Shown piece by piece: positions 1,689-57,387 of a DNA stretch of 64,000 bases (position 1 is the first letter of the stretch; each line of letters starts with the position of its first letter). This DNA comes from Chthoniobacterales bacterium. GTDB taxonomy: Bacteria; Verrucomicrobiota; Verrucomicrobiia; Chthoniobacterales; UBA6821. The translations under genes were made by a program, and so were the position numbers. The stretch covers positions 71,363 through 135,362 of the forward strand of contig JAIEQF010000019.1 of assembly GCA_019747895.1 (NCBI GenBank), written 5' to 3'. Below the pieces are notes generated by a model that made no database searches, was not told the DNA's origin, and saw only the letters and a program-made list of their open reading frames with translations.

Positions 1689-1696
1689 CAGGAAAT

Positions 1697-1860
1697 TAAT
1701 ACCATCTTTAATAAATAACTGGATTATATGACGCAGGAGTTTTTGTGTTGAGCAAGGCGAAAGAGCGTAGCGCTATGTATCATAACGTAAGCTCTGACAA
1801 CGAAGCTCTGCGCAAAAAGAACAAGTTAGATGGTCCAGTTATTTATTAAAGATGGTATTA
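1697..1860. repeat. 164-bp element bounded by a near-perfect 27-nt inverted repeat; the loop carries a GC-rich family-C module
   Basis: taataccatctttaataaataactgga (1697-1723) against tccagttatttattaaagatggtatta (1834-1860), 27 of 28 complementary when extended by one base. The loop (about 1741-1815) resembles the reverse complement of 23650-23740. Confidence 0.85.
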
Positions 1861-1899
1861 GTTAACAAGAAGAGTTGCTGCCAAGCGAGAAAATTTTTC

Positions 1900-4538: not shown

Positions 4539-4604
4539 GAAATAGCCACAAAAGAACACAAAGAACACAAAAAAGTTCCTTTGTGTTCTTTTGTGGCTAT
4601 TCTC
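4539..4604. repeat. Word-arm hairpin, CACAAAGAA class, tight loop
   Basis: gaaatagccacaaaagaacacaaagaacacaaaaaa - gttcc - tttgtgttcttttgtggctattctc. One extra word in the left arm gives a bulge. Confidence 0.85.
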
Positions 4605-6521: not shown

Positions 6522-6586
6522 TTAGGGCGAATGGACGTGATCTCTAAAAATATTTTTGTTTGATGACTAAGCTTATTGGGAAAAAA

Positions 6587-6755
6587 GGTTGCAGGTGACA
6601 GGTTGCAGGTGACAGGAGAAGTATGTTTGCCTGTAGCAAAACGGATAATTTTTTTCTCAGAATACATCAAAGTTGAAAAAAGTGCTTTTATTGGCGAATC
6701 ATTTTTATCGAAGAGCTAATTTTTACCTGTAACCTGTAACCTGCAACCTGTAGCC
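6587..6755. repeat. Word-arm hairpin, ACAGGTT class
   Basis: Left arm ggttgcaggtgacaggttgcaggtgacagg, right arm acctgtaacctgtaacctgcaacctgtagcc, with an AT-rich loop of about 108 nt. Confidence 0.85.
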
Positions 6756-6804
6756 TTAGAGCTTTCCGGAAAAACGGGAAAATAATTTTTTTGGAAAGCT
6801 CTAA
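6756..6804. repeat. Perfect 12-bp inverted repeat ending 2 nt before the HAD start codon
   Basis: ttagagctttcc (6756-6767) against ggaaagctctaa (6793-6804). Confidence 0.8.
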
Positions 6805-7619: not shown

Positions 7620-7663
7620 AGTTAATCGACTTCATTGCTTGATAGCATTTATTTAATTGCAAT

Positions 7664-7844
7664 AGTTTGAGTGCTGTAGTTTGAGTTGCAATTCGCTCGC
7701 GCCCGCGAGGCTCACCCCTTCGGTGCTGCCTTCAGTATTTGATCCCGCGGCTGCCATGCCGCACGTATTAAAAGGCGCTTTGCGCTTTATTTTTTAAATA
7801 TGCGAAGCCTAGATAACTCAAACTCAAACTACAGTACTCAAACT
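7664..7844. repeat. Word-arm hairpin, TTTGAGT class, with a B-module in the loop
   Basis: agtttgagtgctgtagtttgagtt (7664-7687) against the reverse complement of 7821-7844, 1 mismatch in 24. Confidence 0.9.
7693..7770 (+). repeat. GC-rich B-module, copy 1 of 5
   Basis: tcgctcgcgcccgcgaggctcaccccttcggtgctgccttcag...gatcccgcggctgccatgccgcacgtatta. It aligns with 17748-17825, 20892-20969, 34056-34134 and 55689-55766. Confidence 0.85.
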
Positions 7845-7873
7845 GCTGCGGCGCATGCGAAGCAGCGATGCAG

Positions 7874-20758: not shown

Positions 20759-20889
20759 GGATAGAAGGGATAGAAGGGATGAAAGAGGGTTTTTAAAAAG
20801 CGACATCATAATTTCTTGGAAGACAATTTAAGAATAAGCTAAAATCTAAACTTGTTTTTGTATTTATCTCTTCTATCGCTTCCATAGAG
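20759..20889. repeat. Word-arm hairpin, GGATAGAAG class (weaker complementarity)
   Basis: ggatagaagggatagaagggatgaaagaggg against tatctcttctatcgcttccatagag. Confidence 0.55.
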
Positions 20890-20891
20890 AC

Positions 20892-20969
20892 TCGCTTGCT
20901 CCTGCTTGGCTCGCCGCTTTTGGGCTGCCTTCCGCAGTCTATCCGGCGGTCTTCCGACCACTCGTATTC
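20892..20969 (+). repeat. GC-rich B-module, copy 3 of 5 (diverged)
   Basis: tcgcttgctcctgcttggctcgccgcttttgggctgccttccgcagtctatccggcggtcttccgaccactcgtattc. Confidence 0.7.
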
Positions 20970-24727: not shown

Positions 24728-24829
24728 GTTGAGAGGTTGAGAGGTTGAGGGGTTGAGAGGACGCCTTTCTCTCAACGGCCGCGCCAGCGGCGCTCAACAG
24801 CTGCTTTAGCAGCGGCTCAACATCTCAAC
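24728..24829. repeat. Word-arm hairpin, GTTGAGAG class, with GC-rich palindromes in the right arm
   Basis: gttgagaggttgagaggttgaggggttgagagg against ctctcaac...gcgctcaac...ggctcaacatctcaac. Confidence 0.85.
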
Positions 24830-27992: not shown

Positions 27993-28235
27993 ATGATTAT
28001 TCCTACAATGATTGCTCAAGCAGTTGCCGCCTCTGGTATCACCGGTAGCTTTACTCTCGCTATTGCTGGAGCAGGTGCTGCTCTCGGTATCGGCATGATT
28101 GGCGCAAAAGCAGTTGAGTCCGTTGGTCGCAATCCAGGCGCTTTCGGTCGTGTTCTTACACTTGCTATTATTGGTATGGCGCTCGCAGAGTCCATCGCGA
28201 TTTATGCCCTAATTCGTGCCTTTAGCAATCAATAA
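27993..28235 (+). CDS. atpE: F0F1 ATP synthase subunit c
   Basis: 80-aa hairpin proteolipid with GRNPGA loop and the carboxylate in IIGMALAESIAIYALI. Confidence 0.95.
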   Translation: MIIPTMIAQAVAASGITGSFTLAIAGAGAALGIGMIGAKAVESVGRNPGAFGRVLTLAIIGMALAESIAIYALIRAFSNQ

Positions 28236-28240
28236 AAAAA

Positions 28241-28435
28241 GTTGAAGGGTTGAAACGTTGAGGGGTTGAAAAGACTTTTTCCCCTCAACTTTCTCTTTTC
28301 AATGCGAGCAGCTTTGTTTTTAAAGTAAATCAGTTCATAAAATAAAAAATGCACGAATGATTATTGGTCTGGATTTTTATTTTCTTCAACCCCTCAACCT
28401 TTCAACAGCTGCGAAGCAGCGCTCAACCTCTCAAC
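28241..28435. repeat. Word-arm hairpin, GTTGAGAG class, inserted between atpE and atpF
   Basis: gttgaagggttgaaacgttgaggggttgaaaag against cttcaacccctcaacctttcaac...gctcaacctctcaac. Also a local 9-bp stem gttgagggg/cccctcaac. Ends 9 nt before the atpF ATG. Confidence 0.9.
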
Positions 28436-28444
28436 TTTCTTCTC

Positions 28445-28954
28445 ATGCATATCCTTACTGAACTCTTTGAAAACTTTGGTGTCGACTGGCCAAAGTTTTT
28501 GGCTCAGACCATCCTTTTTCTGATCGTCTATTTGGTGTTGCGCCGTTTTGCTTTTGCTTCCGTAATTAATATGCTGGAAGAGCGTCGTCGTCGTATTGAA
28601 GAAGGACAACTGAATGCTGAGAAAATCAAGAAACAGCTTGCAGAAGCAGAGCTTCGCTACGAAGAGATCCTACGTAAGGCTCATGCTGACAGTAAAGCCC
28701 TCATTGAAGAGGCTCGCGTAGCCGCAGAGGCTTCCACAAACAAGGAACTTCAGCGTGCGATCAAAGATGCTGAACTCATTATCATTCATGCTAAAGAAGC
28801 TATTGCTATCGATCGTCAACGAATGATTGAAGAAGTAAAAGGCGATATGATCAGCTTGGTGGTGGCCACCACTGAAAAAGTTGCCGGCAAAGTTCTTAAT
28901 GCTGACGATCAACAGCGACTCAATAAAGAAGCAGCTGCAGCGCTTGCTTCTTAA
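28445..28954 (+). CDS. atpF: F0F1 ATP synthase subunit b
   Basis: ORF 28364.. trimmed to the ATG at 28445; the extension is translated repeat arm. One N-terminal TM helix followed by a long charged helix. Confidence 0.9.
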   Translation: MHILTELFENFGVDWPKFLAQTILFLIVYLVLRRFAFASVINMLEERRRRIEEGQLNAEKIKKQLAEAELRYEEILRKAHADSKALIEEARVAAEASTNKELQRAIKDAELIIIHAKEAIAIDRQRMIEEVKGDMISLVVATTEKVAGKVLNADDQQRLNKEAAAALAS

Positions 28955-28986
28955 TCCTAAATTTTTTTCCACTTTTAATTCTCCAC

Positions 28987-29370
28987 ATGAAAATTCCTCG
29001 CGAAGCCCAACGTCATGCACGTCGTCTCTTTGATGCGTCGTTTGTCGAAGGACGTCTTGATGCTAAGCGCAGCCTTGATGTGGCTGATGCTCTGGTTGCA
29101 ACAAGACCACGTCATGGATTTCAGATTTTGAAGGAATTTGTTCGCCTTGTTCGTTTAGAAATTCAAAAACACACCGCTCTTATTGAAAGTGCTGTTGCTT
29201 TAAGCGAAGCTTCTCAAACAGTCATTGCTGCTGCTTTAAAAGCACGTGATCCTCAAATGGAAGTAACAGCTGCAATTAACGCTTCTCTCATTGGTGGCAC
29301 TCGGATCCGCTTGGGGAGTGATGTTTGGGATGGAACGATCCTCAAACGCCTCGAACAATTAAAAAGCTAA
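28987..29370 (+). CDS. atpH: F0F1 ATP synthase subunit delta (short, 127 aa)
   Basis: Operon position and the OSCP-like C-terminus LIGGTRIRLGSDVWDGTILKRLEQLK. Confidence 0.8.
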   Translation: MKIPREAQRHARRLFDASFVEGRLDAKRSLDVADALVATRPRHGFQILKEFVRLVRLEIQKHTALIESAVALSEASQTVIAAALKARDPQMEVTAAINASLIGGTRIRLGSDVWDGTILKRLEQLKS

Positions 29371-29473
29371 CTACTAAAAACGAGCAACCATTTTTTTAAA
29401 CTTTTTTACTTCAACTTCAACCTTGTCCCCGCGTAGGTGGGGATCCACAATCTCAAACTCCTAAACTTTTAAA

Positions 29474-31009
29474 ATGAGCACTCTTCTACAAGACCTAGAA
29501 CAAAAAATCGGCGCCCTTCGCGATGCGACCGTTACTAAAAGCAATGTCGGCACCGTTCGCGAAATTGGCGATGGTGTTGCCCGCATCGAAGGCTTGAGCG
29601 GTGTCATGCTCAACGAAATGTTAAAATTTCCTGGTGATGTTTACGGTATCGCTTTGAATTTGGAAGAGACTGAAGTGGGTGCGATTATCCTTGGTGACTA
29701 CACTAAGATCAGTGAAGGGGATGAAGTCACAACGACTGGCCGCCTCCTCCAGGTTCCTGTTGGCAAGCAGCTTCTCGGTCGTGTTGTCGATGCACTCGGT
29801 CGTCCAATTGATGGAAAAGGAGAGATTGGCGCTACTGAATTTTACCCTGTTGAAAAAATTGCTCCTGGTATCATCAAACGTCAAGGTGTTACTCAACCAG
29901 TACAGACTGGTATCATGGCAATTGATGCGATGGTTCCCGTCGGACGTGGTCAACGCGAATTGATCATTGGAGATCGTGCAACAGGAAAGACAACGATTGC
30001 GATTGATACGATTATTAATCAAGCCCGCATCAATCGTGCTGGCGAAGAGAGTGGTGATCCTTCCTTCCGCCCGCTCTATTCTATCTACGTTGGTATCGGA
30101 CAACGTGTGGCCAACATCGCTCGTGTTGTCAGTGTGCTTGAAAAAAATGATGCTCTCAAATATACAATCATCATTGCTTCGACTGCTTCCAATGCTGCTG
30201 CAGATCAATACTTGTCTCCGTTTTCCGGAGCTGCGATGGGCGAATGGTTCATGGATCATGGAATGGATGCCTTGATCGTTTTTGATGATCTTTCTAAACA
30301 CGCCGTTGCTTATCGTCAAATTTCTCTCTTGCTCAAACGTCCATCTGGTCGTGAAGCTTATCCCGGAGATGTCTTCTACCTTCACAGCCGCTTGCTAGAG
30401 CGCTCTGCGCGTCTCAGTGAAAAAGCTGGTAACGGTTCGCTCACAGCGCTTCCGATTATTGAAACACAAGCTGGTGACGTCTCTGCTTATATTCCGACGA
30501 ATGTGATTTCGATTACCGACGGTCAGATTTATCTCGAGACCGATCTTTTCTATCAAGGAATTCGTCCTGCGATTTCGGTAGGTCTCTCTGTTTCTCGTGT
30601 CGGTTCCGCCGCACAGATCAAAGCGATGAAGCAAGTTGCTGGAAAACTCAAAGGTGATCTTGCTCAATTCCGTGAGCTCGCGGCGTTTGCTCAATTTGGA
30701 AGCGATCTTGATGCCCGCACCAAAGCTCAATTAGACCGTGGGCAACGTATTGTTGAGCTCTTTAAGCAGACACAATACCGTCCGCTTGCTGTAGAGCTTC
30801 AGTCAGCCATCCTCTGGGCGATGCAGAAAGGTTATTTTGATGCGACTCCAGCAGATAAAGTAAAAGTTTATCAAAACGAAATGGAAGAATTCCTCGCGAC
30901 ACGTAAAGCCCCTATCTTGGCTTCGATTCTTGCTAAAAAAGCTATTGATGCAGAAGTTGAGAAAGAGTTGGGTGCCGCACTCGATGAATTTAAAGCTTCT
31001 GTACGATAA
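29474..31009 (+). CDS. atpA: F0F1 ATP synthase subunit alpha
   Basis: GDRATGKT Walker A and overall alpha-subunit sequence. Confidence 0.97.
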
Positions 31010-31041
31010 TTCGTAGTAACTTCTTTTTTTAATTTCCTAGC

Positions 31042-31956
31042 ATGCCCAACACTCGCGACATTCGCCGACGCATTAAGTCGGTTAAGAACACCGCTCAAAT
31101 CACGAAAGCGATGGAGATGGTGGCTGCCTCGAAGATGCGACGCGCACAGCAGGCTGCTGTTGCGGGGCGTCCTTATTCGGAAGTACTCAATCACGTTCTT
31201 GTTTCGTTGCGAGATCGCGTTGATGCTACAGAACATCCTCTTTTAGAAGTCCGTGAGGTGAAGAAAACATTGGTGCTCCTCATCACTTCCGATAAAGGAC
31301 TTTGCGGTGCTCTCAACACCAACGTGCTGCGTGATGCTTCTCAGCTAGATGTGGATGCGACTGAGTTTGTCGTTATCGGTAAGAAAGGTGCTTCTTTCCT
31401 AGCCCGGACAGGACGCAAGATGATTGCTGACTTCATCCTTCCAGATCACCCTACTTTTTTACAAACGAAACCTATTTCCAAACTTTGTATGGAAAAGTTT
31501 CTTTCGGGGGAAGTCGATAAAGTCACCGTGCTCTATCCTCAGTTTGTGAACACACTGGTGCAAAAACCAGTTCATCTCGGATTGCTTCCTATCACTGCTG
31601 AAAAAGTTCAGGGAACGACCGCTATTCCACTCCCTCATCATTCAGAATCAGCGGCTGTACCTGCTGGACCAGCTTCTGCTGAAGCAGAACAAGCCATTAG
31701 CGAATATCTTTTTGAGCCTTCTTCCCAAGAAGTGCTTCATGCCATCTTGCCTTATTATTTTCATTTTGAAATTTTCCAAAAGATCCTTGATTCACGCGCC
31801 TCGGAACAGAGTGCTCGCATGGTTGCAATGAAAGCAGCTACCGACAACGCAAAGGGACTCGTGAAAGATCTGACCTTGGAATACAACAAAGCTCGTCAAG
31901 CTGGTATTACAACCGAGCTCCTCGAAATTTCAACAGCGCAGATGGCTTTAGGCTAA
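31042..31956 (+). CDS. atpG: F0F1 ATP synthase subunit gamma
   Basis: N-terminus RRIKSVKNTAQITKAMEMVAASKMRRAQ and C-terminus ARQAGITTELLEI. Confidence 0.95.
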   Translation: MPNTRDIRRRIKSVKNTAQITKAMEMVAASKMRRAQQAAVAGRPYSEVLNHVLVSLRDRVDATEHPLLEVREVKKTLVLLITSDKGLCGALNTNVLRDASQLDVDATEFVVIGKKGASFLARTGRKMIADFILPDHPTFLQTKPISKLCMEKFLSGEVDKVTVLYPQFVNTLVQKPVHLGLLPITAEKVQGTTAIPLPHHSESAAVPAGPASAEAEQAISEYLFEPSSQEVLHAILPYYFHFEIFQKILDSRASEQSARMVAMKAATDNAKGLVKDLTLEYNKARQAGITTELLEISTAQMALG

Positions 31957-33597
<1,641 letters not shown>

Positions 33598-33625
33598 GTT
33601 GTTTCTAAATTTCTAAACTTTTCTT

Positions 33626-34036
33626 ATGGCTACGTTACACTTAGAAATCGTCACTCCTGACGCGCGTATCTACGAAGCAGATGTCGATCAAGTTGTCGTG
33701 CCTGGTGTCGAAGGTGAGCTCGGTATTCTTCCGCAGCACGTTCCGCTCATGACCCAACTTCAACCAGGAGAACTCCGCATTTATCAAAATGGCAAAGAGA
33801 GTCGTCTTGCGGTTGGAGAAGGGTTTATTGAGGTGCGTCCTGACAAAGTCTCCGTCTTGACCGACATGGCCATTCATGAGGCTGACATCGATGAGAAGGC
33901 TGTCGAAGAAGCAATAGCACGTGCAGAAAAAGAGATCAGGGATCAAGCGCTGGGTCATGAAGAGTTGGCTACGGTGCAGGCTTCGTTGCAGAAGTCGCTG
34001 GCTAAGCTACGCGTCAAGCGGCGCCACCACCATTAA
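33626..34036 (+). CDS. atpC: F0F1 ATP synthase subunit epsilon
   Basis: Operon position and the N-terminal beta-sandwich sequence LEIVTPD...VVPGVEGELGILPQHVPL. Confidence 0.93.
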   Translation: MATLHLEIVTPDARIYEADVDQVVVPGVEGELGILPQHVPLMTQLQPGELRIYQNGKESRLAVGEGFIEVRPDKVSVLTDMAIHEADIDEKAVEEAIARAEKEIRDQALGHEELATVQASLQKSLAKLRVKRRHHH

Positions 34037-34055
34037 CTGCCTCATTAATTGCAAC

Positions 34056-34134
34056 TTGCTCGCTCCCGCGAGGCTCGCCCCTGTGGGGCTGCCTTTGGCA
34101 TTTGATCCGGCGGCTCTGCCACGCCGCACGTATG
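34056..34134 (+). repeat. GC-rich B-module, copy 4 of 5
   Basis: ttgctcgctcccgcgaggctcgcccctgtggggctgcctttggcatttgatccggcggctctgccacgccgcacgtatg. Confidence 0.85.
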
Positions 34135-34192: not shown

Positions 34193-34358
34193 TATAGTCA
34201 AATTACTTAGAACTTACAAGCAACTGATTTGTCCTTTTTGGGAAAAGACTGCGTTCTCATCCCGTCATGTTATCGTTTAGATAGCGCTCGGTCTTCGGCC
34301 TGGCCTTTTCTAAAAATTCCTGCGTTCTTCCCTGTAATTTCTAAGTAATTTGATTATA
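34193..34358. mobile_element. MITE-like element, copy 1 (about 28-nt terminal inverted repeats, TA on both flanks)
   Basis: tatagtcaaattacttagaacttacaag against the reverse complement of cctgtaatttctaagtaatttgattata (25 of 28). 8 differences in 166 nt compared with 55801-55966. It sits between an E-module (34165-34190) and a D-module (34357-34423). Confidence 0.85.
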
Positions 34359-40272: not shown

Positions 40273-40521
40273 GAAATTAACCACAAAGAACACAAAGATT
40301 ACACAAAGAACACAAAAGAATTTTTTGATAAAAAAATTCTAAGTATTAAGAAAAGAAGTCTCAATGGAAGTCTTCTTTTAATTGTTTGTAATCACAATTT
40401 TTAAAGCTTTCAATTTTATCTGCGATTGTCATTTTCAAAGCCTTAAAATTTTTTTATAAAAAATTTTATTTTGTGTTCTTTGTGTGCCGCTTTAGTAGCT
40501 TTGTGATCTTTGTGGTGAATT
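40273..40521. repeat. Word-arm hairpin, CACAAAGAA class, with about 50-nt arms
   Basis: gaaattaaccacaaagaacacaaagattacacaaagaacacaaaagaa against ttttgtgttctttgtgtgccgctttagtagctttgtgatctttgtggtgaatt. The loop holds an 8-bp stem aaaagaag/cttctttt. Ends 9 nt before the next ATG. Confidence 0.88.
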
Positions 40522-46965: not shown

Positions 46966-47426
46966 CTGACAGGTTATAGGTTGCAGGTTACAGGTTACAG
47001 GTAATTTTCTATAGGAAAAATTATTTTGATAGATGCACTGATTTTATTAGGGAATAAAGAACTTTTTTAGCTTCTTCTATTATTGAATGATGTTCCAAAC
47101 TGCTTTCATTCAGATATCCTAAGCGGCTTGCTAAACTCCATTGATAATCTAGTTCTTTAAGAGAGCCATAAGCAATTTCGAGATAACGAAGATACTCAGC
47201 TTGGCTTTCACGCGTGCATCCTTCAACAATATTAGAAGCTACAGAAACTGCTGCTCGACGAATTTGTGAAGTTAATCCGTAGATTTCTTCCTTGGGGAAA
47301 TTTTGTGTGCTTTTGTAAATAAGTATGGCTACTTCATCAGCTAATTGAAAAGCACGCAATTTTGTGTGATCTCTCATAAAATGTTTCTTACCTGTCACCT
47401 GCAACCTGTTACCTGTTTACCTGTTA
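46966..47426. mobile_element. Inverted-repeat-bounded insert (ACAGGTT-class arms) carrying four-helix-bundle gene 1, filling the icd-carB spacer
   Basis: Arms ctgacaggttataggttgcaggttacaggttacaggtaa (46966-47004) and ttacctgtcacctgcaacctgttacctgtttacctgtta (47388-47426). The proximal 19 nt have 2 mismatches. The right arm contains the icd stop; the left arm ends 1 nt from the carB ATG. Mobility is an inference. Confidence 0.7.
47021..47377 (-). CDS. Four-helix-bundle protein (23S rRNA intervening-sequence protein / Avd family)
   Basis: ORF trimmed to the ATG at 47377. FQLADEVAILIYKSTQNFPKEEIYGLTSQIRRAAVSVASNIVEG...YLRYLEIAYGSLKELDYQ matches the family pattern (FPkeE..L.sQlrRAa.Si..NIaEG...f...l.iA.GS..E). 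Confidence 0.9.
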   Translation of the reverse strand: MRDHTKLRAFQLADEVAILIYKSTQNFPKEEIYGLTSQIRRAAVSVASNIVEGCTRESQAEYLRYLEIAYGSLKELDYQWSLASRLGYLNESSLEHHSIIEEAKKVLYSLIKSVHLSK

Positions 47427-48920: not shown

Positions 48921-49340
48921 CTAATGCGCCTGTTGAGAAGTTGAGGAGGGAGCTGTTTTTGTTTTTGCTCGCTGTTCTTGTGAAGAATGCAAAGCGCTTA
49001 ATTGAGTAGCGATTGATTTTATTGTTTTACGTTGAAAAGACAACTCTGATTCCAAAAGATAACCTTGATCAAATGCAATAATCAATAAATTCAATGATTC
49101 TAACAAAGATGAATAAGCAATATTAGAAAAGTGAGCTTGGTCTTTGTGAGACTTGCGTGCGGAACCTTCGGCTATATTTGTTGGAACAGAAACAGCAGCT
49201 CGATTCAATTGAGCTATCAATCCAAAACTTTCTTTATTTGGAAAAGAGCTGGTAATATTATAAACGGCTTTTACCCAAATCCGTGCCTCTTGCCATACTC
49301 GTAATTTTTCAAAAGTAAATAGGCTGGTATTCGTAATCAT
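48921..49340 (-). CDS. Four-helix-bundle protein (23S rRNA intervening-sequence protein / Avd family)
   Basis: FEKLRVWQEARIWVKAVYNITSSFPNKESFGLIAQLNRAAVSVPTNIAEGSAR.S.KD...F..IAYSSLLE. The C-terminal tail is translated repeat arm. Confidence 0.9.
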   Translation of the reverse strand: MITNTSLFTFEKLRVWQEARIWVKAVYNITSSFPNKESFGLIAQLNRAAVSVPTNIAEGSARKSHKDQAHFSNIAYSSLLESLNLLIIAFDQGYLLESELSFQRKTIKSIATQLSALHSSQEQRAKTKTAPSSTSQQAH

Positions 49341-49506
49341 GAAGGTTGAAAAAAGCAGTTAATCTTAAAAAGATACTTCAAATTTTGCGATCTAATTTTA
49401 GATTTTTTTTGTTAGCATTTTTGTAATCCTTCAGATTTCTGGTCAAGAATGAGCTTTATAAAACTATTTTTGTAAAAAGTTGAAAAGTTGAGTCGCTGAA
49501 AAGCAT

Positions 49507-49630
49507 CTGTTGAGCGCCGCTAGTGGGGCTGTTGAAAAGAAACCATCCTTTCAACCTCTCAACTCTTCAACAAAACCTTTGATGTAAGATTTTATTTGCT
49601 TTTGTATAATCTGGTCTTCTAAACGAATGC
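49507..49630. repeat. 124-nt element, uninterrupted copy (interrupted copy at 17699-17742 plus 17836-17910)
   Basis: The first 44 nt differ at 4 positions from 17699-17742. The last 74-75 nt differ at 7 positions from 17836-17910. Confidence 0.85.
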
Positions 49631-50308: not shown

Positions 50309-50312
50309 AAGA

Positions 50313-50432
50313 ACAGGTTACAGTTTACAGGAAAAAGGTATAGTTAACCCGGATGTTTTAAATAAGGCGATTGGAATTTACTAAAAAAATTTCTGGAATA
50401 TTTTGCTGTAACCTGCAACCTGTAACCTGTAA
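50313..50432. repeat. Word-arm hairpin, ACAGGTT class, filling a divergent spacer
   Basis: acaggttacagtttacagg against ctgtaacctgcaacctgtaacctgtaa. The arms end 4 nt and 9 nt from the two divergent start codons. Confidence 0.85.
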
Positions 50433-50441
50433 ACTTCAAAT

Positions 50442-51980
50442 ATGGACGTTGAAATACTCGCAAGAATTCAATTTGCTTTCACTGTAGCCTTTCACTACAT
50501 CTACCCGCCAATGACCATGGGGCTTGGTTTGGCGCTGGTTCTCATGGAGGGAACTTATTTGGCTACGGGCAATCGCCTTTACCATCGTTTAGCTCATTTT
50601 TGGACGCGCATCTTTGCCGTTATTTTTTCTATTGGGACAGCAACAGGGATTGTGATGGAGTTTGAGTTTGGAACAAATTGGGCGACTTACTCTCGATTTG
50701 TCGGGGATATTTTTGGAAGTGCTTTGGCTGCGGAGGGGATTTTTGCTTTCATGCTAGAGGCAGGATTTCTTTCCCTTCTTTTATTTGGTTGGGATAAAGT
50801 TGGAAAGAAGATGCACTTTTTTGCAACTTGCATGGTTTGTCTTGGCTCTCACTTCAGTGCCATCTGGATTGTGGTTGCTAATTCTTGGATGCAGACACCA
50901 GCAGGCTATCATCTTGAATTAATCAAAAATGGGATTCACACATCTCTTCCTGCCAATTATATTTTGCAGCCAGAAGATATTGGTCATGTTCGTGCCGTGA
51001 TCGATAGTTTTTGGGGAATGGTTTTCAATCCCTCGTCCATGCAACGACTCGCTCATGTCGTATTTGGGACTTGGTTAACGGGGGCTTTTCTCATCATCAG
51101 TATTAGTGCCTACTACTTGATCCGAGGACGGCATCGCGCTTTTGCTCAAGCTTCCATGACGGTTGCTGTCATTTTTGCAGCGGCAGCTTCGCTTTGCCAA
51201 TCGGTGAGCGCTGATTTTACAGCACGTGGCGTGGTCAAAAATCAACCGATCAAATTGGCTGCGATGGAGGGGGTTTATCACACTGTTCCCTACACGCCAA
51301 TGAATCTGTTTGGATTTGTCGATACCAAGCAACAAAAAGTCTACTCGCTTCAAATTCCAGGCCTTCTCAGCTTGCTCGCATTTCACAATTTTGAAAAACC
51401 AGTTCTAGGACTTGACCAACTTCCTTCCGATGAGTTTTTGGCAGCGAGAAATCCAGGAAAAACAACGCAAGAACTTGCCTCGCTCCGTCCTCGGTATTGG
51501 CCGCAGATTGGAGCAACGTTTCAAACATATCATCTCATGATCATTGTGGGATCCATGGTTTTTGCAGGAGCTTTTCTCTCGCTCTTCTTGTTGCTTAAAG
51601 GACGACTCTTTCGCACTGATTCTTTTTTCATTCGCTGTTGGCTCTTCTTACTGATTTTTTCTGTGCTCGGTCCGCAGATTTGTAATCAAGCAGGATGGTT
51701 TACAGCGGAGATCGGGCGGCAGCCATGGATTGTTTACAATCTTTTAAAAACCTCAGAAGCTCTTTCTAAAAAAGTCTCTTCGGATCAAGTCTTAGGATCG
51801 CTTTTTCTCTTTTTTGCTATTTATGCGCTCCTCTTTTTTGCTTTTATCTACTTGCTCAATTTAAAAATTCAACATGGTCCAGATGATCCTGAAGAAGATC
51901 CAGAGGCGCCGGCACCTGGTGAAAAATCATTCCTCTCTCAACTTGTCGTAGGAACAGATGAGTCTCGGGCTTCTTCGTGA
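50442..51980 (+). CDS. cydA: Cytochrome bd ubiquinol oxidase subunit I
   Basis: [24 protein letters not shown]-terminus, Q-loop and [12 protein letters not shown] motif. Confidence 0.95.
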
Positions 51981-52000
51981 GCCACTGTGCGACTGAAAAG

Positions 52001-52189
52001 AATTAACCGCAAAGAACGCAAAGAGCACAAAGAAAAAAATCTGACGATGATTGGCTTTTTCAAAATTATAGGGTTTGGTTATTATGTGAATGAGCACAAA
52101 ATACAAAATATCAACTAGCGAACCTGAAGCTTCGCTTTCAACTTTTTTTACTTTTTTCTTTGTGCTCTTTGCGTTTTTTGCGGTTAATT
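52001..52189. repeat. Word-arm hairpin, CACAAAGAA class, inserted between cydA and cydB
   Basis: aattaaccgcaaagaacgcaaagagcacaaagaaaaaa against the reverse complement of 52152-52189: 1 mismatch in 38 nt, with a 112-nt loop. Confidence 0.92.
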
Positions 52190-52226
52190 TCTTAGTTTTT
52201 TAATTTGGGTAAACTATTTTACAAAA

Positions 52227-53279
52227 ATGCATTTCTTCAACAGCTGCGTAGCAACGATCGCTCCCTACTACACGACGATTTGGTTTATTCTCGTTGGCAT
52301 TCTTTTTACGGGATATGCGGTGCTCGATGGTTTTGATTTGGGGGTGGGAGCGCTGCATCTTTTTGTGAAGAATGATCACGATCGGCGGATTTTTCTTAAT
52401 GCCATTGGGCCTGTCTGGGATGGAAATGAAGTTTGGTTGGTAGTGGGAGGAGGCGCCCTTTTTGCAGCCTTTCCTGGAGCTTATGCGACGGTCTTCTCGG
52501 GATTTTATATGCCTTTCATGTTGCTCTTGGTCTCGCTGATTTTTCGTGCGGTGGCCATTGAATTTCGCAGTAAAGAACCTGGAACAATGTGGCGTCAGAC
52601 GTGGGATGTTTTATTTTCGGTAGGGAGTATTTTTTCTTCCTTTGTCATCGGGGTTGCCCTTGGCAATATCACACGCGGCATTCCTCTGGATGCCAGCGGA
52701 GAATTTGCAGGAACTTTTTGGGGTCTGTTCAATCCTTACAGTATTTTTCTTGGGGTTACGGTGGTGGTTCTCTTTGCTATGCATGGTGCCATTTATCTAA
52801 CAATGAAAACGGAGGGAGTATTGCAAGAACAAGTCAAAGGGTGGGTGCTCAAGCTGATCCTGCTTTTTGTTGGGTGTTACTTAATTTTTAATCTCTCAAC
52901 ACTTTTTGTCTCTCCTTACTTGGCTAAAGTTATTTTTTCACGGCCACTTATTTTTGTAGTTCTCGCTCTCGATATGCTTGCCTTGCTCAACGTCTGGCTT
53001 TTGATCAAGGCTGGTAAAGAGTTTGCAGCCTTTCTTTCTTCCTGCCTCATGATGGCCCTGCTCATGATGACGTTTGGAATTTCTTATTATCCCAACATGG
53101 TGCTTTCATCACCAAATCCTGAGAATAGCTTAACAATTTTTAATTGCTCTTCGACCAATTACACGCTGGGATTACTTTCCGTCATCGTTGTCATTGGTGT
53201 TCCAATGGTGCTGACTTATACAACGAGTGTTTATTGGATTTTTAGAGGGAAGACGAAGTTGACGGATACGAGTTACTGA
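52227..53279 (+). CDS. cydB: Cytochrome bd ubiquinol oxidase subunit II
   Basis: YAVLDGFDLGVG and PVWDGNEVWL motifs. Confidence 0.93.
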   Translation: MHFFNSCVATIAPYYTTIWFILVGILFTGYAVLDGFDLGVGALHLFVKNDHDRRIFLNAIGPVWDGNEVWLVVGGGALFAAFPGAYATVFSGFYMPFMLLLVSLIFRAVAIEFRSKEPGTMWRQTWDVLFSVGSIFSSFVIGVALGNITRGIPLDASGEFAGTFWGLFNPYSIFLGVTVVVLFAMHGAIYLTMKTEGVLQEQVKGWVLKLILLFVGCYLIFNLSTLFVSPYLAKVIFSRPLIFVVLALDMLALLNVWLLIKAGKEFAAFLSSCLMMALLMMTFGISYYPNMVLSSPNPENSLTIFNCSSTNYTLGLLSVIVVIGVPMVLTYTTSVYWIFRGKTKLTDTSY

Positions 53280-53280
53280 G

Positions 53281-53411
53281 GCGTTGTTAAACAACGCGGT
53301 AACGAGTAACGAGTATGTTTAAGATCGAAACAAAATCAGATATTTTAACTGCATCTCAGAACGCTTCATATTTTACTCTTTACTTGATCAACTTATTATT
53401 TATTACTCTTC
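53281..53411. repeat. 8-bp perfect palindrome at the cydB stop, followed by a weak TAACGAGTA-class word-arm hairpin
   Basis: gcgttgtt-a-aacaacgc (53281-53297). ggtaacgagtaacgagta against tactctttacttgatcaacttattatttattactcttc, with low complementarity. Confidence 0.55.
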
Positions 53412-55417: not shown

Positions 55418-55688
55418 GATTGCACTTCGTTTCATAGCTCCTGCATTGAATGATGCAGGGGAAGTTATATTTTCAAATGACTTGGCCGCGATTAAAGCTT
55501 TGATTGACGCTCAAGTCATAAATCAGAACGCTCTTTTTCGTAATGGTCCATTTTTTGAATTGATCTGGATCAACTTGATGTGAGCTATGACTAGAGCATT
55601 TTCACTAAAGTTGTAGCCGCGCATTGCGGCGTCACTCCGGTGCTCGCGTCCTCGAGTATCAGAATACACTGCGGATCTGCGGTTGAAC

Positions 55689-55766
55689 TCGCTCGCTCCC
55701 GCTCGGCTCGCCCTTACGGGCTGCTTAACAGCAGTCCATCCAGCGGCCGCCCGGCCGGCTGTATTC
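55689..55766 (+). repeat. GC-rich B-module, copy 5 of 5 (diverged)
   Basis: tcgctcgctcccgctcggctcgcccttacgggctgcttaacagcagtccatccagcggccgcccggccggctgtattc. Confidence 0.7.
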
Positions 55767-55800
55767 TCGTTTCTGGCACTGCATCGGCTACAACTTCATT

Positions 55801-55966
55801 TATAGTCAAATTACTTAGAACTTACAAGCAATTGACTTGTCCTTTTTAGGAAAAGACTGTGTTCTCATCCCGTCACGTTATCGTTTAGATAGCGCTCGGT
55901 CTTCGGTCTGGCCTTTTCTAAAAATTCCTGCGTTCTTCCCTGTAATTTTTAAGTAATTTGACTATA
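55801..55966. mobile_element. MITE-like element, copy 2
   Basis: About 95% identical to 34193-34358. TA at 55801-55802 and 55965-55966 flanks the core tagtcaaatt...aatttgacta. Confidence 0.85.
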
Positions 55967-56129
55967 ACATGCTCTAGTAACTGTGAGAAAAAAGCTAGGT
56001 TCGTTTTCTGGAGAAGGATTTTCTTGTAAGTGATGATCTGTTTTTTGATCCGATGCTTCTGGTAAAAAAGCGCATGGAAAATCTAAAAGAATAGGTTCGG
56101 AAGAAACATCTTCTCTCTGTTGAAAAAAA

Positions 56130-56785
56130 TTAGAAAAAAATTTCTTTTTCTTGATGCCAAAATTCTAGGCTTATCAATTTGCTGATAGCAAAAGCGATGG
56201 TGGCGTCAAAAGTGAAGCCGGTTTTTGCTTCTTCTTTTTGCAGCTCTGCGAGCAGATATCCTTGAGTTCTTGTTGTGAACTCTTGTTGGAGTTCCGGTCC
56301 TGCCTTCAAAGAGCCTTGCATTGGGAATGTGCAGAGGACAGAAGAATCCCTTTTTAAAATCTGGAGAAGAAGCGAGATTTTTTCCGTGGAGAAGGTTATT
56401 TCATTTTTTGATAACAATGAATCTACCTCTTCTTTTTTTTGGCGATAGCTTCTTCTGAATTTTTTCTTCGCGCGTTCCCTCTGCGCTTTGTGCGAAGGGA
56501 TCTTGTGATGCGTCTGGATATTTTAAAAAATGCTCTGAAGGTGAACCATAAGGAGTAAAAAACTGGTCAGGTGTAACGCTTCCTCTTCTAGAGATGGTGC
56601 TGCCCGTGCTGAATCTGTTTTTGCTCGCCCCAATAGTCGGATCAATTGCTGTGCTCAGAACAAACCGATCGCCTCGTTCTGTTCGGCCAGAGGCATCCTC
56701 TTCCTCTCCTCGTTGGATTTCCCTTGTCTTAGCAGTGGTTGGATTTTTTAAACTATCTTCAAAGGAAGATGGTTTTTTTATCCAT
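56130..56785 (-). pseudogene. Gene split into three frames by two A/T homopolymers; would encode about 217 aa if each run were 1 nt shorter
   Basis: ATG at 56785 gives MDKK, then the T7 run (56773-56779) shifts frame. The middle frame is open from 56793 to the stop at 56401. The T6 run (56404-56409) separates it from track ORF 56130..56417. The middle part is S/T/P/R-rich with KKLSPKKRRGR. Confidence 0.6.
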
Positions 56786-56847
56786 CGGATTAGCTAGCAG
56801 TAAAGCAGAAAGCCATAAACTTCCCGTGACAATGGGAAAGATTTTGA

Positions 56848-57387
56848 TCAAGGTTTAAGAACACGAATTTCTGGAAGGTTCCTATAATATTCCTGATAGT
56901 CGAGGCCATATCCGACAACAAATTCATCAGGAATTTCAAATCCAACATAGTGAGCCGTGATGTTTTCAGTGGTCTTTGCTGTTTTGTGGAGGAGCACGCA
57001 AGACTGAAGGCTTGCGGGGCCTTTGGTTTGAAGGTATTCGCTGAGAACTTTCAATGTTTTTCCGCTATCGAGAATATCATCAATGAGCAGAAGGTGGCGG
57101 TCCGTGATATCAGGAAGCGGGACGGATTGAAGAGTGACCATGCCGGAAGAGACAGTGCCTCCGTGGTAGCTTGATACAGGAATGATTTCCAATCTGAGAG
57201 GAAGAGGAATGAGGCGGAGGAGATCTGCCAAAAAGACAATGCTTCCCTTCATGAGGGCAATAATGGTCAATTCTTTGTCTGCATAATCTCGTGTGATAGC
57301 CGTTGCAAGTTCAGTAACTCTTTTTTGAATGGCCTGTTGATCAACAAGAATTCGATCGATGTTGGGTGTTTTCGTTTTGTTGGTCAT
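56848..57387 (-). CDS. hpt: Hypoxanthine-guanine phosphoribosyltransferase
   Basis: ORF trimmed to the ATG at 57387. PRPP-binding motif LLLIDDILDSGKTL. Confidence 0.92.
   Translation of the reverse strand: MTNKTKTPNIDRILVDQQAIQKRVTELATAITRDYADKELTIIALMKGSIVFLADLLRLIPLPLRLEIIPVSSYHGGTVSSGMVTLQSVPLPDITDRHLLLIDDILDSGKTLKVLSEYLQTKGPASLQSCVLLHKTAKTTENITAHYVGFEIPDEFVVGYGLDYQEYYRNLPEIRVLKP

What the first reader, a model, noticed from the sequence alone, without database searches (positions are those of the whole stretch)
51981..52226. 246-nt spacer with a 38-nt near-perfect inverted repeat splits cydA from cydB
- cydA and cydB are normally adjacent or overlapping.
- Here they are separated by 246 nt containing the best-preserved hairpin in the window.
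- Its arms at 52001-52038 and 52152-52189 have 1 mismatch in 38 nt, with a 112-nt loop.
- The near-perfect arms suggest a recent insertion or duplication event, or strong structural selection.
- The arm words (AACCGCAAAGAACGCAAAGAGCACAAAGAA) are a variant of the CACAAAGAA class, which shows that words drift between loci.
Basis: seen in the sequence. Interest (0 to 1): 0.55.

Follow-up and report, generated by a model that had tools for sequence, protein, structure and literature searches.

The report
Mobile palindromic repeat splitting cydA and cydB
The hairpin between the two cytochrome bd oxidase genes is real, but it is one copy of a family of small palindromic repeats that fill the gaps between genes in this soil or freshwater bacterium, arrived here recently, and shows no sign of being a dedicated regulator.

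Summary
Observation confirmed. This is the strongest inverted repeat in the window. cydA and cydB are confirmed by Pfam.

It is not a one-off. The window, from a Chthoniobacterales MAG, has 16 strong inverted repeats versus 0 in shuffles, nearly all intergenic. Two of them split the ATP synthase operon. The arm terminus AATTARCCRCAAAGAA occurs 10 times versus 0.33 expected.

Relatives give the history. cydA and cydB overlap or lie 33-66 nt apart in lineages with 83-90% CydB identity. Lineages at 96% and 98% carry this same element at 97.4-98.4% identity, although four-fold sites of the flanking genes differ by 10-31%. Two lineages only 2% apart at four-fold sites carry two other, unrelated spacers. 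Stem changes are one-sided, with no compensatory pairs.

Best reading: a young, MITE-like or REP-like palindromic cassette, possibly inserted at a TTAA, that has spread among heavily recombining lineages and is co-transcribed within cydAB.

Unexplained class features: arms built from tandem 7-9-nt words, unrelated cores of a fixed length near 114 nt, and purine-rich 5' arms.

The parts
50442..51980 (+). cydA (cytochrome bd oxidase subunit I), upstream gene
   Evidence: ORF; PF01654, E = 6e-149
51981..52000 (+). 20-nt linker after the cydA stop codon. Its 3' end is the junction of a 31-nt (98% lineage) or 22-nt (96% lineage) deletion that removed an older solo arm (ATTCACCACAAAGAA[TACAAAGAA]GAAGAGG) which those relatives still carry.
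   Evidence: Alignment A3. The remnant corresponds to L001's left edge AATTCACCGTAAAAAAGA.
52001..52038 (+). Arm 1 of the inverted repeat. It is made of 9-nt words (CGCAAAGAA / CGCAAAGAG / CACAAAGAA) behind the family terminus AATTAACCGCAAAGAA.
   Evidence: period 9; terminus: 10 hits versus 0.33 expected. Apart from its first base (52001, which lies at the deletion junction), it is identical in the 96% and 98% lineages.
52003..52006 (.). Left TTAA, a candidate target-site duplication together with 52184-52187.
   Evidence: Boundaries read A-TTAA-CCGC...GCGG-TTAA-T. L102 has a single GGA-TTAA-CTTTTCT at the corresponding place. Ambiguous, because TTAA is itself palindromic.
52039..52151 (+). 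113-nt AT-rich core (the loop). It is unique in all sequence held, and 99.1% identical in the 96% and 98% lineages.
   Evidence: No Rfam family. No motif shared with other cores.
52047..52118 (+). 23-codon ORF inside the core (MIGFFKIIGFGYYVNEHKIQNIN). Judged not to be a gene.
   Evidence: No Pfam match. No comparable ORF in the other cores of the class. It is absent from L001, L089 and L102, which lack this core.
52117..52136 (.). Small internal hairpin AGCGAA-CCTGAAGC-TTCGCT within the core.
   Evidence: The terminator-like call is on the minus strand only, and the number of such calls is not above chance.
52152..52189 (+). Arm 2. T52176 makes the only mismatch (G.T). The 96% lineage has C there, which gives a perfect 38-bp stem.
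52184..52187 (.). Right TTAA (see 52003-52006).
52190..52226 (+). 37-nt U-rich leader before the cydB start codon. It has one substitution versus the 96% and 98% lineages.
52227..53279 (+). cydB (cytochrome bd oxidase subunit II), downstream gene
   Evidence: ORF; PF02322; 100% identical to MBX9577715.1 from a Chthoniobacterales MAG.

Best explanation
The 189-nt unit at 52001-52189 is a small, non-coding palindromic repeat element. It behaves like a MITE or REP/BIME-type element and belongs to a dispersed family whose members share the terminus AATTA(A/G)CC(A/G)CAAAGAA.

Shown: the ancestral cydA-cydB junction in this Chthoniobacterales clade was short, either overlapping or 33-66 nt.

Inferred: the element entered the junction beside an older solo arm of the same family, quite possibly at a TTAA that now flanks it on both sides. 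It was born with a perfect 38-bp stem and is now decaying by one-sided substitutions.

Inferred: it is shared almost unchanged by lineages whose genes are 10-31% apart at synonymous sites because it is younger than those lineages. It moved between them by recombination or repeated insertion in a population that recombines heavily.

Inferred, not tested: cydA and cydB remain one operon, and the element is simply transcribed through. The mRNA then carries a roughly -80 kcal/mol hairpin 20 nt after the cydA stop codon and 37 nt before the cydB start codon. Any effect on mRNA processing, stability or partial termination is a by-product, as with REP and Correia elements.
For: 1. It belongs to a genome-wide class. 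The window has 16 strong inverted repeats versus 0 in five locally shuffled controls, almost all in intergenic gaps. Two lie inside the atp operon, at atpE|atpF and atpG|atpD.
2. It belongs to a dispersed family. The terminus occurs 10 times versus 0.33 expected.
3. Related elements are demonstrably mobile. L001's spacer element is 82% identical over 89 nt to a window element at another locus, 15545-15633. A CACAAAGAA-class half-element and a 166-nt MITE sit in L099 at a site where the window has overlapping genes.
4. Presence and absence at this junction. The genes overlap in L092. The spacer is 39 nt in L091, 33 nt in L101 and 66 nt in L102, all without the hairpin. The element is present in the window and in the 98% and 96% lineages. 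Two other, unrelated spacers occupy the junction in L001 and L089, which are only 2% apart at four-fold sites.
5. The element is young. Spacer divergence is 1.6-2.6%, against four-fold divergence of 10-31% in the flanking genes and 25.8% in the neighbouring intergenic gap of the same genome pair (Fisher P = 2.6e-13).
6. The population recombines heavily. Four-fold divergence between the window and L099 ranges from 0.017 to 0.33 per gene.
7. There is no structural constraint signal. Zero compensatory pairs, and two broken pairs in the 98% lineage. Across the class there is no G.U strand bias: 13 sense, 12 antisense, 24 transversions.
8. TTAA lies at both ends, and L102 has a single TTAA at the matching place.
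Against: 1. No second full-length copy (same core) was found. However, only 64 kb of this genome plus about 0.6 Mb of relatives' loci could be searched.
2. No transposase or cognate IS was seen.
3. The TTAA duplication is ambiguous, because TTAA is palindromic. MAFFT prefers to align L102's solo arm with arm 1, which would favour an in-situ inverted duplication.
4. The whole spacer, including the 37-nt leader outside the repeat, is conserved about as strongly as codon positions 1+2 (4/246 versus 52/1728; P = 0.30). Purifying selection would also explain this.
5. Other orthologous intergenic regions are likewise 1.7-7.4% diverged, against 0.09-0.33 at four-fold sites.
6. Hairpins recur in cydA-cydB spacers of unrelated genomes.
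7. Family members have unrelated interiors, unlike classical MITE families.
Confidence: 0.58

Rival explanations
1. It is a functional intercistronic RNA element. In this reading the hairpin, and perhaps the core, is kept by selection because it processes, stabilises or partly terminates the cydAB transcript, for example as an RNase III site or as a 3' stabiliser of the cydA segment. Alternatively the core is released as a small RNA.
For: The fold is extremely stable (z = -9.3). The whole spacer is about 16 times less diverged than four-fold sites and than the neighbouring gap in the same genome pair. The 37-nt leader is conserved as well. Six cydA-cydB spacers in other genomes fold far better than shuffles (z of -3.4 or lower). 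Hairpins also sit inside the atp operon. The 5' arms are purine-rich and the 3' arms U-rich in 16 of 19 inverted repeats, which is a terminator-like polarity. A U-rich tail follows arm 2.
Against: No compensatory changes, and the 98% lineage breaks two pairs. There is no sense-strand G.U excess across the class. Two lineages 2% apart at four-fold sites carry unrelated spacers, one of which (L001) folds no better than shuffles (z = -1.0). Relatives with short spacers do without a hairpin. Elements of the class also lie between divergent gene starts (50313-50423). No Rfam family matches. Substitutions are not distributed in proportion to gene-tree branch lengths: 3 of 9 fall on the long branch, where about 6.3 are expected. 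That count is my own reading of alignment A3 and P is roughly 0.03.
Confidence: 0.2
2. It grew in situ rather than by insertion. A pre-existing solo arm, as in L102, acquired its partner by inverted duplication or template switching. Word slippage plus quasi-palindrome correction then lengthened and perfected the stem. Nothing transposed.
For: The arms are tandem 9-nt words. They are more similar to each other (97-100%) than to any paralogue (90% or less). Word-sized indels occur between lineages: a 9-nt word in the outer arm and a 9-nt indel in the cydB|tkt gap. Nested arm layers are seen at 40275-40521 and 15507-15655. MAFFT aligns L102's solo arm to arm 1. Interiors differ between family members.
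Against: This does not explain where a unique 113-nt core comes from. It does not explain why unrelated cores have the same length. It does not explain why the same allele is found in lineages 27-31% apart at four-fold sites while a lineage pair 2% apart differs. Other elements of the class clearly have copies at unrelated loci.
Confidence: 0.15
3. It is a DNA-level protein-binding or topological site. Two inverted word arrays about 150 bp apart would bind a dimeric or wrapping protein, much as BIME elements bind gyrase or IHF.
For: Loop lengths cluster tightly at 108-115 nt in 9 of 16 inverted repeats (P of about 9e-11) even though the sequences are unrelated. Arm mismatches are strand-symmetric. 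Elements occur in every type of gap.
Against: At least six unrelated word classes would need as many binding proteins. Word periods of 7-9 nt do not match the helical repeat. Elements are replaced freely between close relatives. No candidate binding protein was identified.
Confidence: 0.05

Closest known systems
Correia elements (CREE) of Neisseria and ERIC/IRU of enterobacteria, which are bacterial MITE-like palindromic repeats (comparison from my own knowledge)
   Same: About 100-190 nt and non-coding. Long terminal inverted repeats. Palindromic TA-type target sites. Scattered through intergenic DNA, including inside operons. Transcribed as long mRNA hairpins. Present or absent between close strains.
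   Different: No sequence similarity. Here the arms are tandem 7-9-nt words. Family members share termini but have unrelated interiors. No cognate transposase is known.
REP/BIME elements and REPINs (RAYT-mobilised).
   Same: Abundant extragenic palindromes. Inverted doublets that form large hairpins. Mosaic or nested arrangement. They can sit between cistrons, for example malE-malF (from my own knowledge).
   Different: Each arm here is not itself a palindrome. There is no GTAG or CGTC head. Whether a RAYT is present is unknown.
Short tandemly repeated heptamers of cyanobacteria (STRR) and the TAACTGA repeats of Beggiatoaceae (PMC4679880)
   Same: Tandem 7-nt words confined to intergenic DNA, with different words coexisting in one genome and a patchy phylogenetic distribution.
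   Different: Those are direct arrays; PMC4679880 reports only one inverted set among 170. Here the arrays come as inverted pairs around a core.
Quasi-palindrome correction by intramolecular template switching (mechanism, from my own knowledge)
   Same: It would perfect imperfect inverted repeats and copy a word duplication from one arm to the other.
   Different: It is a mutational mechanism, not an element family, and it does not supply the core.

Membership tests
[quoted passage not shown] | Small, with no coding capacity | tested here: met
   189 nt. The only ORF has 23 codons, no Pfam match and no counterpart in other elements.
[quoted passage not shown] | Terminal inverted repeats | tested here: met
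   38-nt arms with 1 mismatch, and a perfect stem in the 96% lineage.
[quoted passage not shown] | Target-site duplication | tested here: inconclusive
   TTAA lies at both ends, and L102 has a single TTAA at the matching place. But TTAA is palindromic and the alignment to L102 is ambiguous.
[quoted passage not shown] | Multiple homologous copies in the genome | tested here: inconclusive
   The terminus family gives 10 hits versus 0.33 expected. No second copy with the same core was found in the 64 kb plus loci available. The whole genome was not available.
[quoted passage not shown] | Filled and empty sites among relatives | tested here: met
   Absent from L092, L091, L101 and L102. Present in L082-L088 and the window. 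Other, unrelated spacers in L001 and L089.
[quoted passage not shown] | A cognate autonomous IS with matching terminal repeats | not testable with these tools
   No transposase was seen in the window genes scanned or in the Pfam lists of the fetched contigs. The full genome could not be reached.
REP / REPIN | Each unit is a 20-40-nt imperfect palindrome with a conserved GTAG or CGTC head | tested here: not met
   Arm 1 is a tandem-word array, not self-complementary, and it starts AATTAACC. Criteria taken from PMC3733652.
REP / REPIN | An associated RAYT transposase in the genome | not testable with these tools
   Only 64 kb of the genome is available.
Intrinsic (Rho-independent) terminator | Short G+C-rich stem, a 3-8-nt loop, and an adjacent U-tract at a transcript end | tested here: not met
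   The stem is 38 bp, A/U-rich, with a 113-nt loop. It is not called by the consensus scan. It lies inside an operon. Only the U-rich tail is present.
Known structured RNA family (Rfam) | A covariance-model match at the gathering score | tested here: not met
   No hit at the gathering threshold. The best relaxed hits are miRNA-precursor models at 33 bits against a 211-bit cut-off.
Cytochrome bd small subunit (CydX/CydS-like) gene in the spacer | A conserved small transmembrane ORF | tested here: not met
   The 23-aa and 43-aa ORFs have no Pfam match. Mean hydropathy is 0.2. The longer ORF is frame-shifted by the 22- or 31-nt indel in relatives (my reading of alignment A3).

The most novel reading that the evidence does not exclude
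The element would be one instance of an undescribed class of bacterial intergenic cassettes. The class is seen in this Chthoniobacterales clade, with short-loop relatives in other Verrucomicrobiota. Each cassette has two inverted arrays of tandem 7-9-nt words, purine-rich arm first, around a core held to about 113-117 nt whatever its sequence. A dedicated length-measuring machinery would create, exchange and replace these cassettes. Their strong within-allele conservation would reflect a real function, for example release of the core from operon transcripts by cleavage of the long stem, rather than mere youth.
Probability: 0.15. Interest if true: 0.75.

Novelty: new variant of a known kind. 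Interest (0 to 1): 0.45.

Why it matters
For cydAB itself the finding matters little. The operon tolerates a roughly 190-nt hairpin cassette, and close relatives carry different cassettes or none, so no cyd-specific regulation needs to be invoked.

The wider pattern is more interesting. In this Chthoniobacterales clade most intergenic DNA appears to be built from fast-turning-over palindromic cassettes that even sit inside the atp and cyd operons. One of them supplies the start codon and first residues of CydB in one lineage.

The cassettes have three features I could not find described in the literature searched: stems made of tandem words, a sharply fixed core length with unrelated sequence, and a consistent purine/pyrimidine arm polarity.

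If a dedicated mechanism lies behind them, it would be a new kind of mobile or self-organising DNA. If not, the clade is still a clean natural system for watching how palindromic repeats are born perfect, spread through a recombining population, and decay.

Tried and rejected
1. Rfam at gathering and relaxed thresholds gave only generic long-hairpin artefacts.
2. A plasmid database search with the spacer found no match.
3. Small-protein gene in the loop, either CydX-like or a type I toxin: no Pfam match, and no class-wide hydrophobic ORFs.
4. Promoter and terminator consensus scan: counts are not above the shuffled expectation. One 9/12 promoter-like site lies in the core and carries no weight.
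5. Test for an RNA-level wobble signature (sense-strand G.U excess) was negative: 13 versus 12.
6. Search for a motif shared among the 113-115-nt cores found nothing above shuffles.
7. The 'AACC...GGTT' head as a special signature: not enriched over control tetramers (6 versus 0-11), so I dropped it.
8. A single homologous-recombination tract covering the spacer: flanking four-fold divergence is still 10% (cydA, last 300 nt) and 22% (cydB, first 399 nt), against 1.6% in the spacer. One simple tract therefore does not explain it.
9. Lower mutation rate of AT-rich DNA as the cause of the conservation: rejected, because the equally AT-rich neighbouring gap is 25.8% diverged in the same genome pair.
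10. Assembly artefact: rejected, because the identical element is present in seven independent metagenome contigs with lineage-specific substitutions.
11. Integron attC site: considered from memory and rejected. The stem is long and nearly perfect with no extrahelical-base architecture, and the flanking genes are core metabolism, not cassettes.
12. Exact-protein look-up of the window's own CydB found no contig. The single metagenome pattern scan returned only one L001-like strain.

Full report
**1. The observation**

The 246-nt spacer (51981-52226) lies between an ORF with a full-length Cyt_bd_oxida_I match (cydA) and one with a full-length Cyt_bd_oxida_II match (cydB). It contains an inverted repeat with arms at 52001-52038 and 52152-52189.

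The 30-nt arm word occurs nowhere else in the window, with 0 matches expected in shuffles. As RNA the spacer folds at -79.6 kcal/mol, against -44.7 +/- 3.8 for dinucleotide shuffles (z = -9.3). It is the best inverted repeat in the window.

**2. It is one of many**

A scan of the whole window finds 16 inverted repeats with a score of at least 14, against none in five locally shuffled controls. A gap-by-gap scan shows that almost every intergenic gap longer than about 200 nt carries one.

Most arms are tandem arrays of 7-9-nt words. The word classes are CACAAAGAA, ACAGGTT, GTTGAGAG, GAGTAAT, ATAGAAGGG and AGTTTGAGT.

The hairpin at cydAB belongs to the CACAAAGAA class. Its terminus AATTARCCRCAAAGAA occurs 10 times in the window, against 0.33 expected; 0 of 100 shuffles reach 10. 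Members of this family share their ends, but their interiors range from 15 to about 200 nt and are unrelated or nested.

Two further elements interrupt the ATP synthase operon: 28249-28406 between atpE and atpF, and 31960-32142 between atpG and atpD. So cydA|cydB is not a special case.

**3. The organism and the normal state of the junction**

CydB is 100% identical to MBX9577715.1 from a Chthoniobacterales MAG. Among 69 related cydAB loci, 50 have a spacer of 30 nt or less and 14 have more than 60 nt. Six of those 14 fold far better than shuffles. Several of the long spacers carry word-array hairpins with other words, for example L021, L031, L032 and L041. Such hairpins therefore recur at this junction in Verrucomicrobiota, and in a few Bacteroidota.

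**4. History at this junction**

I assembled a graded series of relatives.

| Lineage | CydB identity to window | cydA-cydB spacer | What is there |
|---|---|---|---|
| L092 | 88.6% | overlap | no spacer |
| L101 | 83% | 33 nt | no hairpin |
| L091 | 90% | 39 nt | no hairpin |
| L102 | 85% | 66 nt | a solo CACAAAGAA-class arm, no partner |
| L001 / L081 | 94.3% | 139 nt | degenerate short hairpin |
| L089 / L090 | 93.6% | 175 nt | different word-array hairpin |
| L085-L088 | 96% | 268 nt | the window's element |
| L082-L084 | 98% | 277 nt | the window's element |
| window | 100% | 246 nt | this element |

- L001's hairpin is 82% identical over 89 nt to a window element at a different locus, 15545-15633.
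- L089's hairpin has AGTTCGT/AGTTGGT words and an unrelated 117-nt core. Its 3' arm contains the cydB start codon.
- L085 and L082 carry the window's element with the same 113-nt core. They also have 22 or 31 nt of an older solo arm, which the window has since deleted between two ATT.ACC repeats.
- In the 96% lineage the stem is perfect (38/38). The window's mismatch is a C-to-T change at 52176. The 98% lineage adds two uncompensated transversions in arm 2.
- A formal count over the three carrier lineages gives 35 invariant pairs, one one-sided change, two broken pairs and no compensatory change.

**5. Age**

Uncorrected four-fold divergence in cydA plus cydB:

| Pair | Four-fold divergence |
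|---|---|
| window - L082 | 0.10 |
| window - L085 | 0.27 |
| L082 - L085 | 0.31 |
| window - L001 | 0.28 |
| window - L089 | 0.28 |
| L001 - L089 | 0.02 |

Yet the spacer differs by only 1.6% (window-L085), 2.0% (window-L082) and 2.6% (L082-L085). In the window-L085 pair, the neighbouring intergenic gap between the histidine phosphatase gene and cydA is orthologous and 25.8% diverged (Fisher P = 2.6e-13). Directly flanking coding DNA is still 10% (cydA, last 300 nt) and 22% (cydB, first 399 nt) diverged at four-fold sites.

So lineages 27-31% apart share one allele almost unchanged, while L001 and L089, only 2% apart, carry unrelated spacers. That is the signature of cassettes with their own recent, horizontal history.

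A 20-kb comparison with the 98% lineage (L099) supports this.
- Four-fold divergence per gene ranges from 0.017 to 0.33, which indicates heavy recombination.
- Orthologous gaps are either 1.7-7.4% diverged or replaced outright.
- A 166-nt MITE (the window copies are at 34193 and 55800) and a CACAAAGAA-class half-element occupy a site in L099 where the window's two convergent genes overlap, which is a clean empty site.
- The atpE|atpF junction behaves the same way. One relative has the window's element about 6% diverged (my count from the printed spacers), and others have different spacers.

**6. Mode of origin**

The element is bounded as GGA-TTAA-[CCGC...GCGG]-TTAA-TTTCTT. L102 reads GGA-TTAA-CTTTTCT just before the same cydB start codon. 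This fits insertion with duplication of TTAA (or TA).

The evidence is not decisive. TTAA is palindromic, and MAFFT instead aligns L102's solo arm with arm 1. That alternative would allow arm 2 to have arisen by inverted duplication in situ. I therefore keep in-situ growth (word slippage plus quasi-palindrome correction) as a rival for the origin step.

**7. Function**

Several tests gave nothing that points to a dedicated function.
- No Rfam family matches.
- The loop ORFs have no Pfam family, and there is no class-wide small ORF.
- Promoter and terminator matches are not above chance.
- Across the class, arm mismatches are strand-symmetric: 13 would be G.U in the sense strand, 12 in the antisense strand, and 24 are transversions.
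- Elements also lie between divergent gene starts.

Together with the free replacement between near-identical relatives, this argues that the hairpin is a tolerated passenger transcribed within cydAB.

Two observations keep a functional reading alive at about 0.2. The whole spacer, leader included, evolves no faster than codon positions 1+2 (P = 0.30). And the class shows a terminator-like polarity, with the 5' arm purine-rich in 16 of 19 inverted repeats (P = 0.004).

**8. What remains unexplained**

- Cores of unrelated sequence have nearly the same length. Nine of the 16 inverted repeats have loops of 108-115 nt, and seven of those are 113-115 nt (binomial P of about 9e-11). L089's loop is 117 nt.
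- Why stems are built from tandem words.
- Why similar words (AACCGC..., GGTTGCA...) appear in distant Verrucomicrobiota such as L012, L022 and L027.

Three literature searches found no description of this architecture, and neither did reading the closest papers: on GTAG/CGTC REPs, on heptamer direct repeats, and a survey of perfect short-spacer inverted repeats.

**9. Caveats**

- Gene models are ORF-based.
- Divergences are uncorrected, and the counts in the spacer are small.
- All relatives are metagenome contigs.
- The rest of the window's genome could not be searched, so the copy number of this exact element is unknown.

Noticed in passing
window 1694-1863, 2882-2998, 4541-4601, 6584-6765, 7659-7849, 10309-10447, 12306-12468, 15507-15655, 17681-17844, 20761-20885, 24728-24829, 28249-28406, 31960-32142, 40275-40521, 49479-49571, 50313-50423, 53299-53383: A genome-wide class of intergenic inverted repeats whose arms are tandem 7-9-nt words, in at least six word classes. 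The window has 16 strong inverted repeats versus 0 in shuffled controls.
   Followed up: partly
window elements at 6586, 15511, 28249, 31970, 34193, 40301, 52001 and 55800; L089:2341-2507: The loops (cores) have unrelated sequences but nearly identical length, 113-115 nt (117 in L089). Nine of 16 inverted repeats fall within 108-115 nt, P of about 9e-11. No shared motif was found. I have no explanation.
   Followed up: partly
window-wide (the inverted repeats): Arm polarity: the 5' arm is purine-rich and the 3' arm pyrimidine-rich in 16 of 19 non-tied inverted repeats (P = 0.004). Because of the symmetry of an inverted repeat, this holds on both strands.
   Followed up: partly
window 27993-34036: The ATP synthase operon (atpE, F, H, A, G, D, C) is interrupted by two such hairpins: atpE|atpF (28249-28406) and atpG|atpD (31960-32142). 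The ORF-based atpF start at 28364 lies inside the hairpin, so the real start is probably the ATG near 28444.
   Followed up: partly
window 34193-34358 and 55800-55967; L099:18024-18192; empty site at window 62767-62775: A classical 166-nt MITE (ends TATAGTCAAATTACTTAG...). The two window copies are 95% identical. A third copy, 97% identical, sits in the 98% relative at a site where the window's two convergent genes overlap by 4 nt.
   Followed up: yes
window 7693-7771, 17748-17826, 34051-34133, 55686-55765, 20892-20949: A G+C-rich dispersed repeat of about 80 nt (TCGCTCGC.CCCGCGAGGCTC.CC..TTCGG.GCTGCCTTCAG...), sometimes lying inside hairpin cores. Its nature was not determined.
   Followed up: no
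window 48921-49340 (minus strand): A gene of the 23S rRNA intervening-sequence protein family (PF05635). It is absent at this position in L001 and the 96% lineage, present in the 98% lineage, and only 1.7% diverged there at four-fold sites, while its neighbour icd is 33% diverged. It looks recently transferred.
   Followed up: partly
window 42815-63916 versus L099: Four-fold divergence per gene varies from 0.017 to 0.33 along 20 kb of conserved synteny. This mosaic indicates frequent homologous recombination among these Chthoniobacterales lineages.
   Followed up: partly
L089:2483-2507 and L090 (same coordinates): In the 93.6% lineage the 3' arm of a different hairpin element contains the cydB start codon and encodes the first residues (MNYQ...). 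An inserted repeat has therefore rewritten the protein's N-terminus.
   Followed up: partly
window 55418-56851; window 46966-47423; window 60407-61451: These three segments are present in the window but absent at the orthologous place in the 98% relative (L099). The first is a 1.4-kb repeat-rich stretch with a 95-codon ORF. The second holds a 127-codon ORF and the third a 307-codon ORF. Conversely, L001 and the 96% lineage have a roughly 1.2-kb insertion with two small ORFs between cydB and tkt.
   Followed up: no
L012:3710-3860, L022:253-328, L027:9088-9162, L021:5375-5488, L031:2737-2826, L038:3734-3832, L048, L050: Word-array hairpins with short loops (12-68 nt) occur in distant Verrucomicrobiota (Cerasicoccus and others) and in some Bacteroidota. 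Some use words resembling those of the window (AACCGCAGAGAGCGC..., GGTTGCAAGTTGCAGG...).
   Followed up: partly
window 50309-50441 versus L082:963-1184 and L001:3757-4000: The divergent gap upstream of cydA carries a hairpin in every lineage, but of three different word classes: ACAGGTT in the window and the 96% lineage, GGCTGAAG in the 98% lineage, and GAGTAAT in the 94% lineage.
   Followed up: yes
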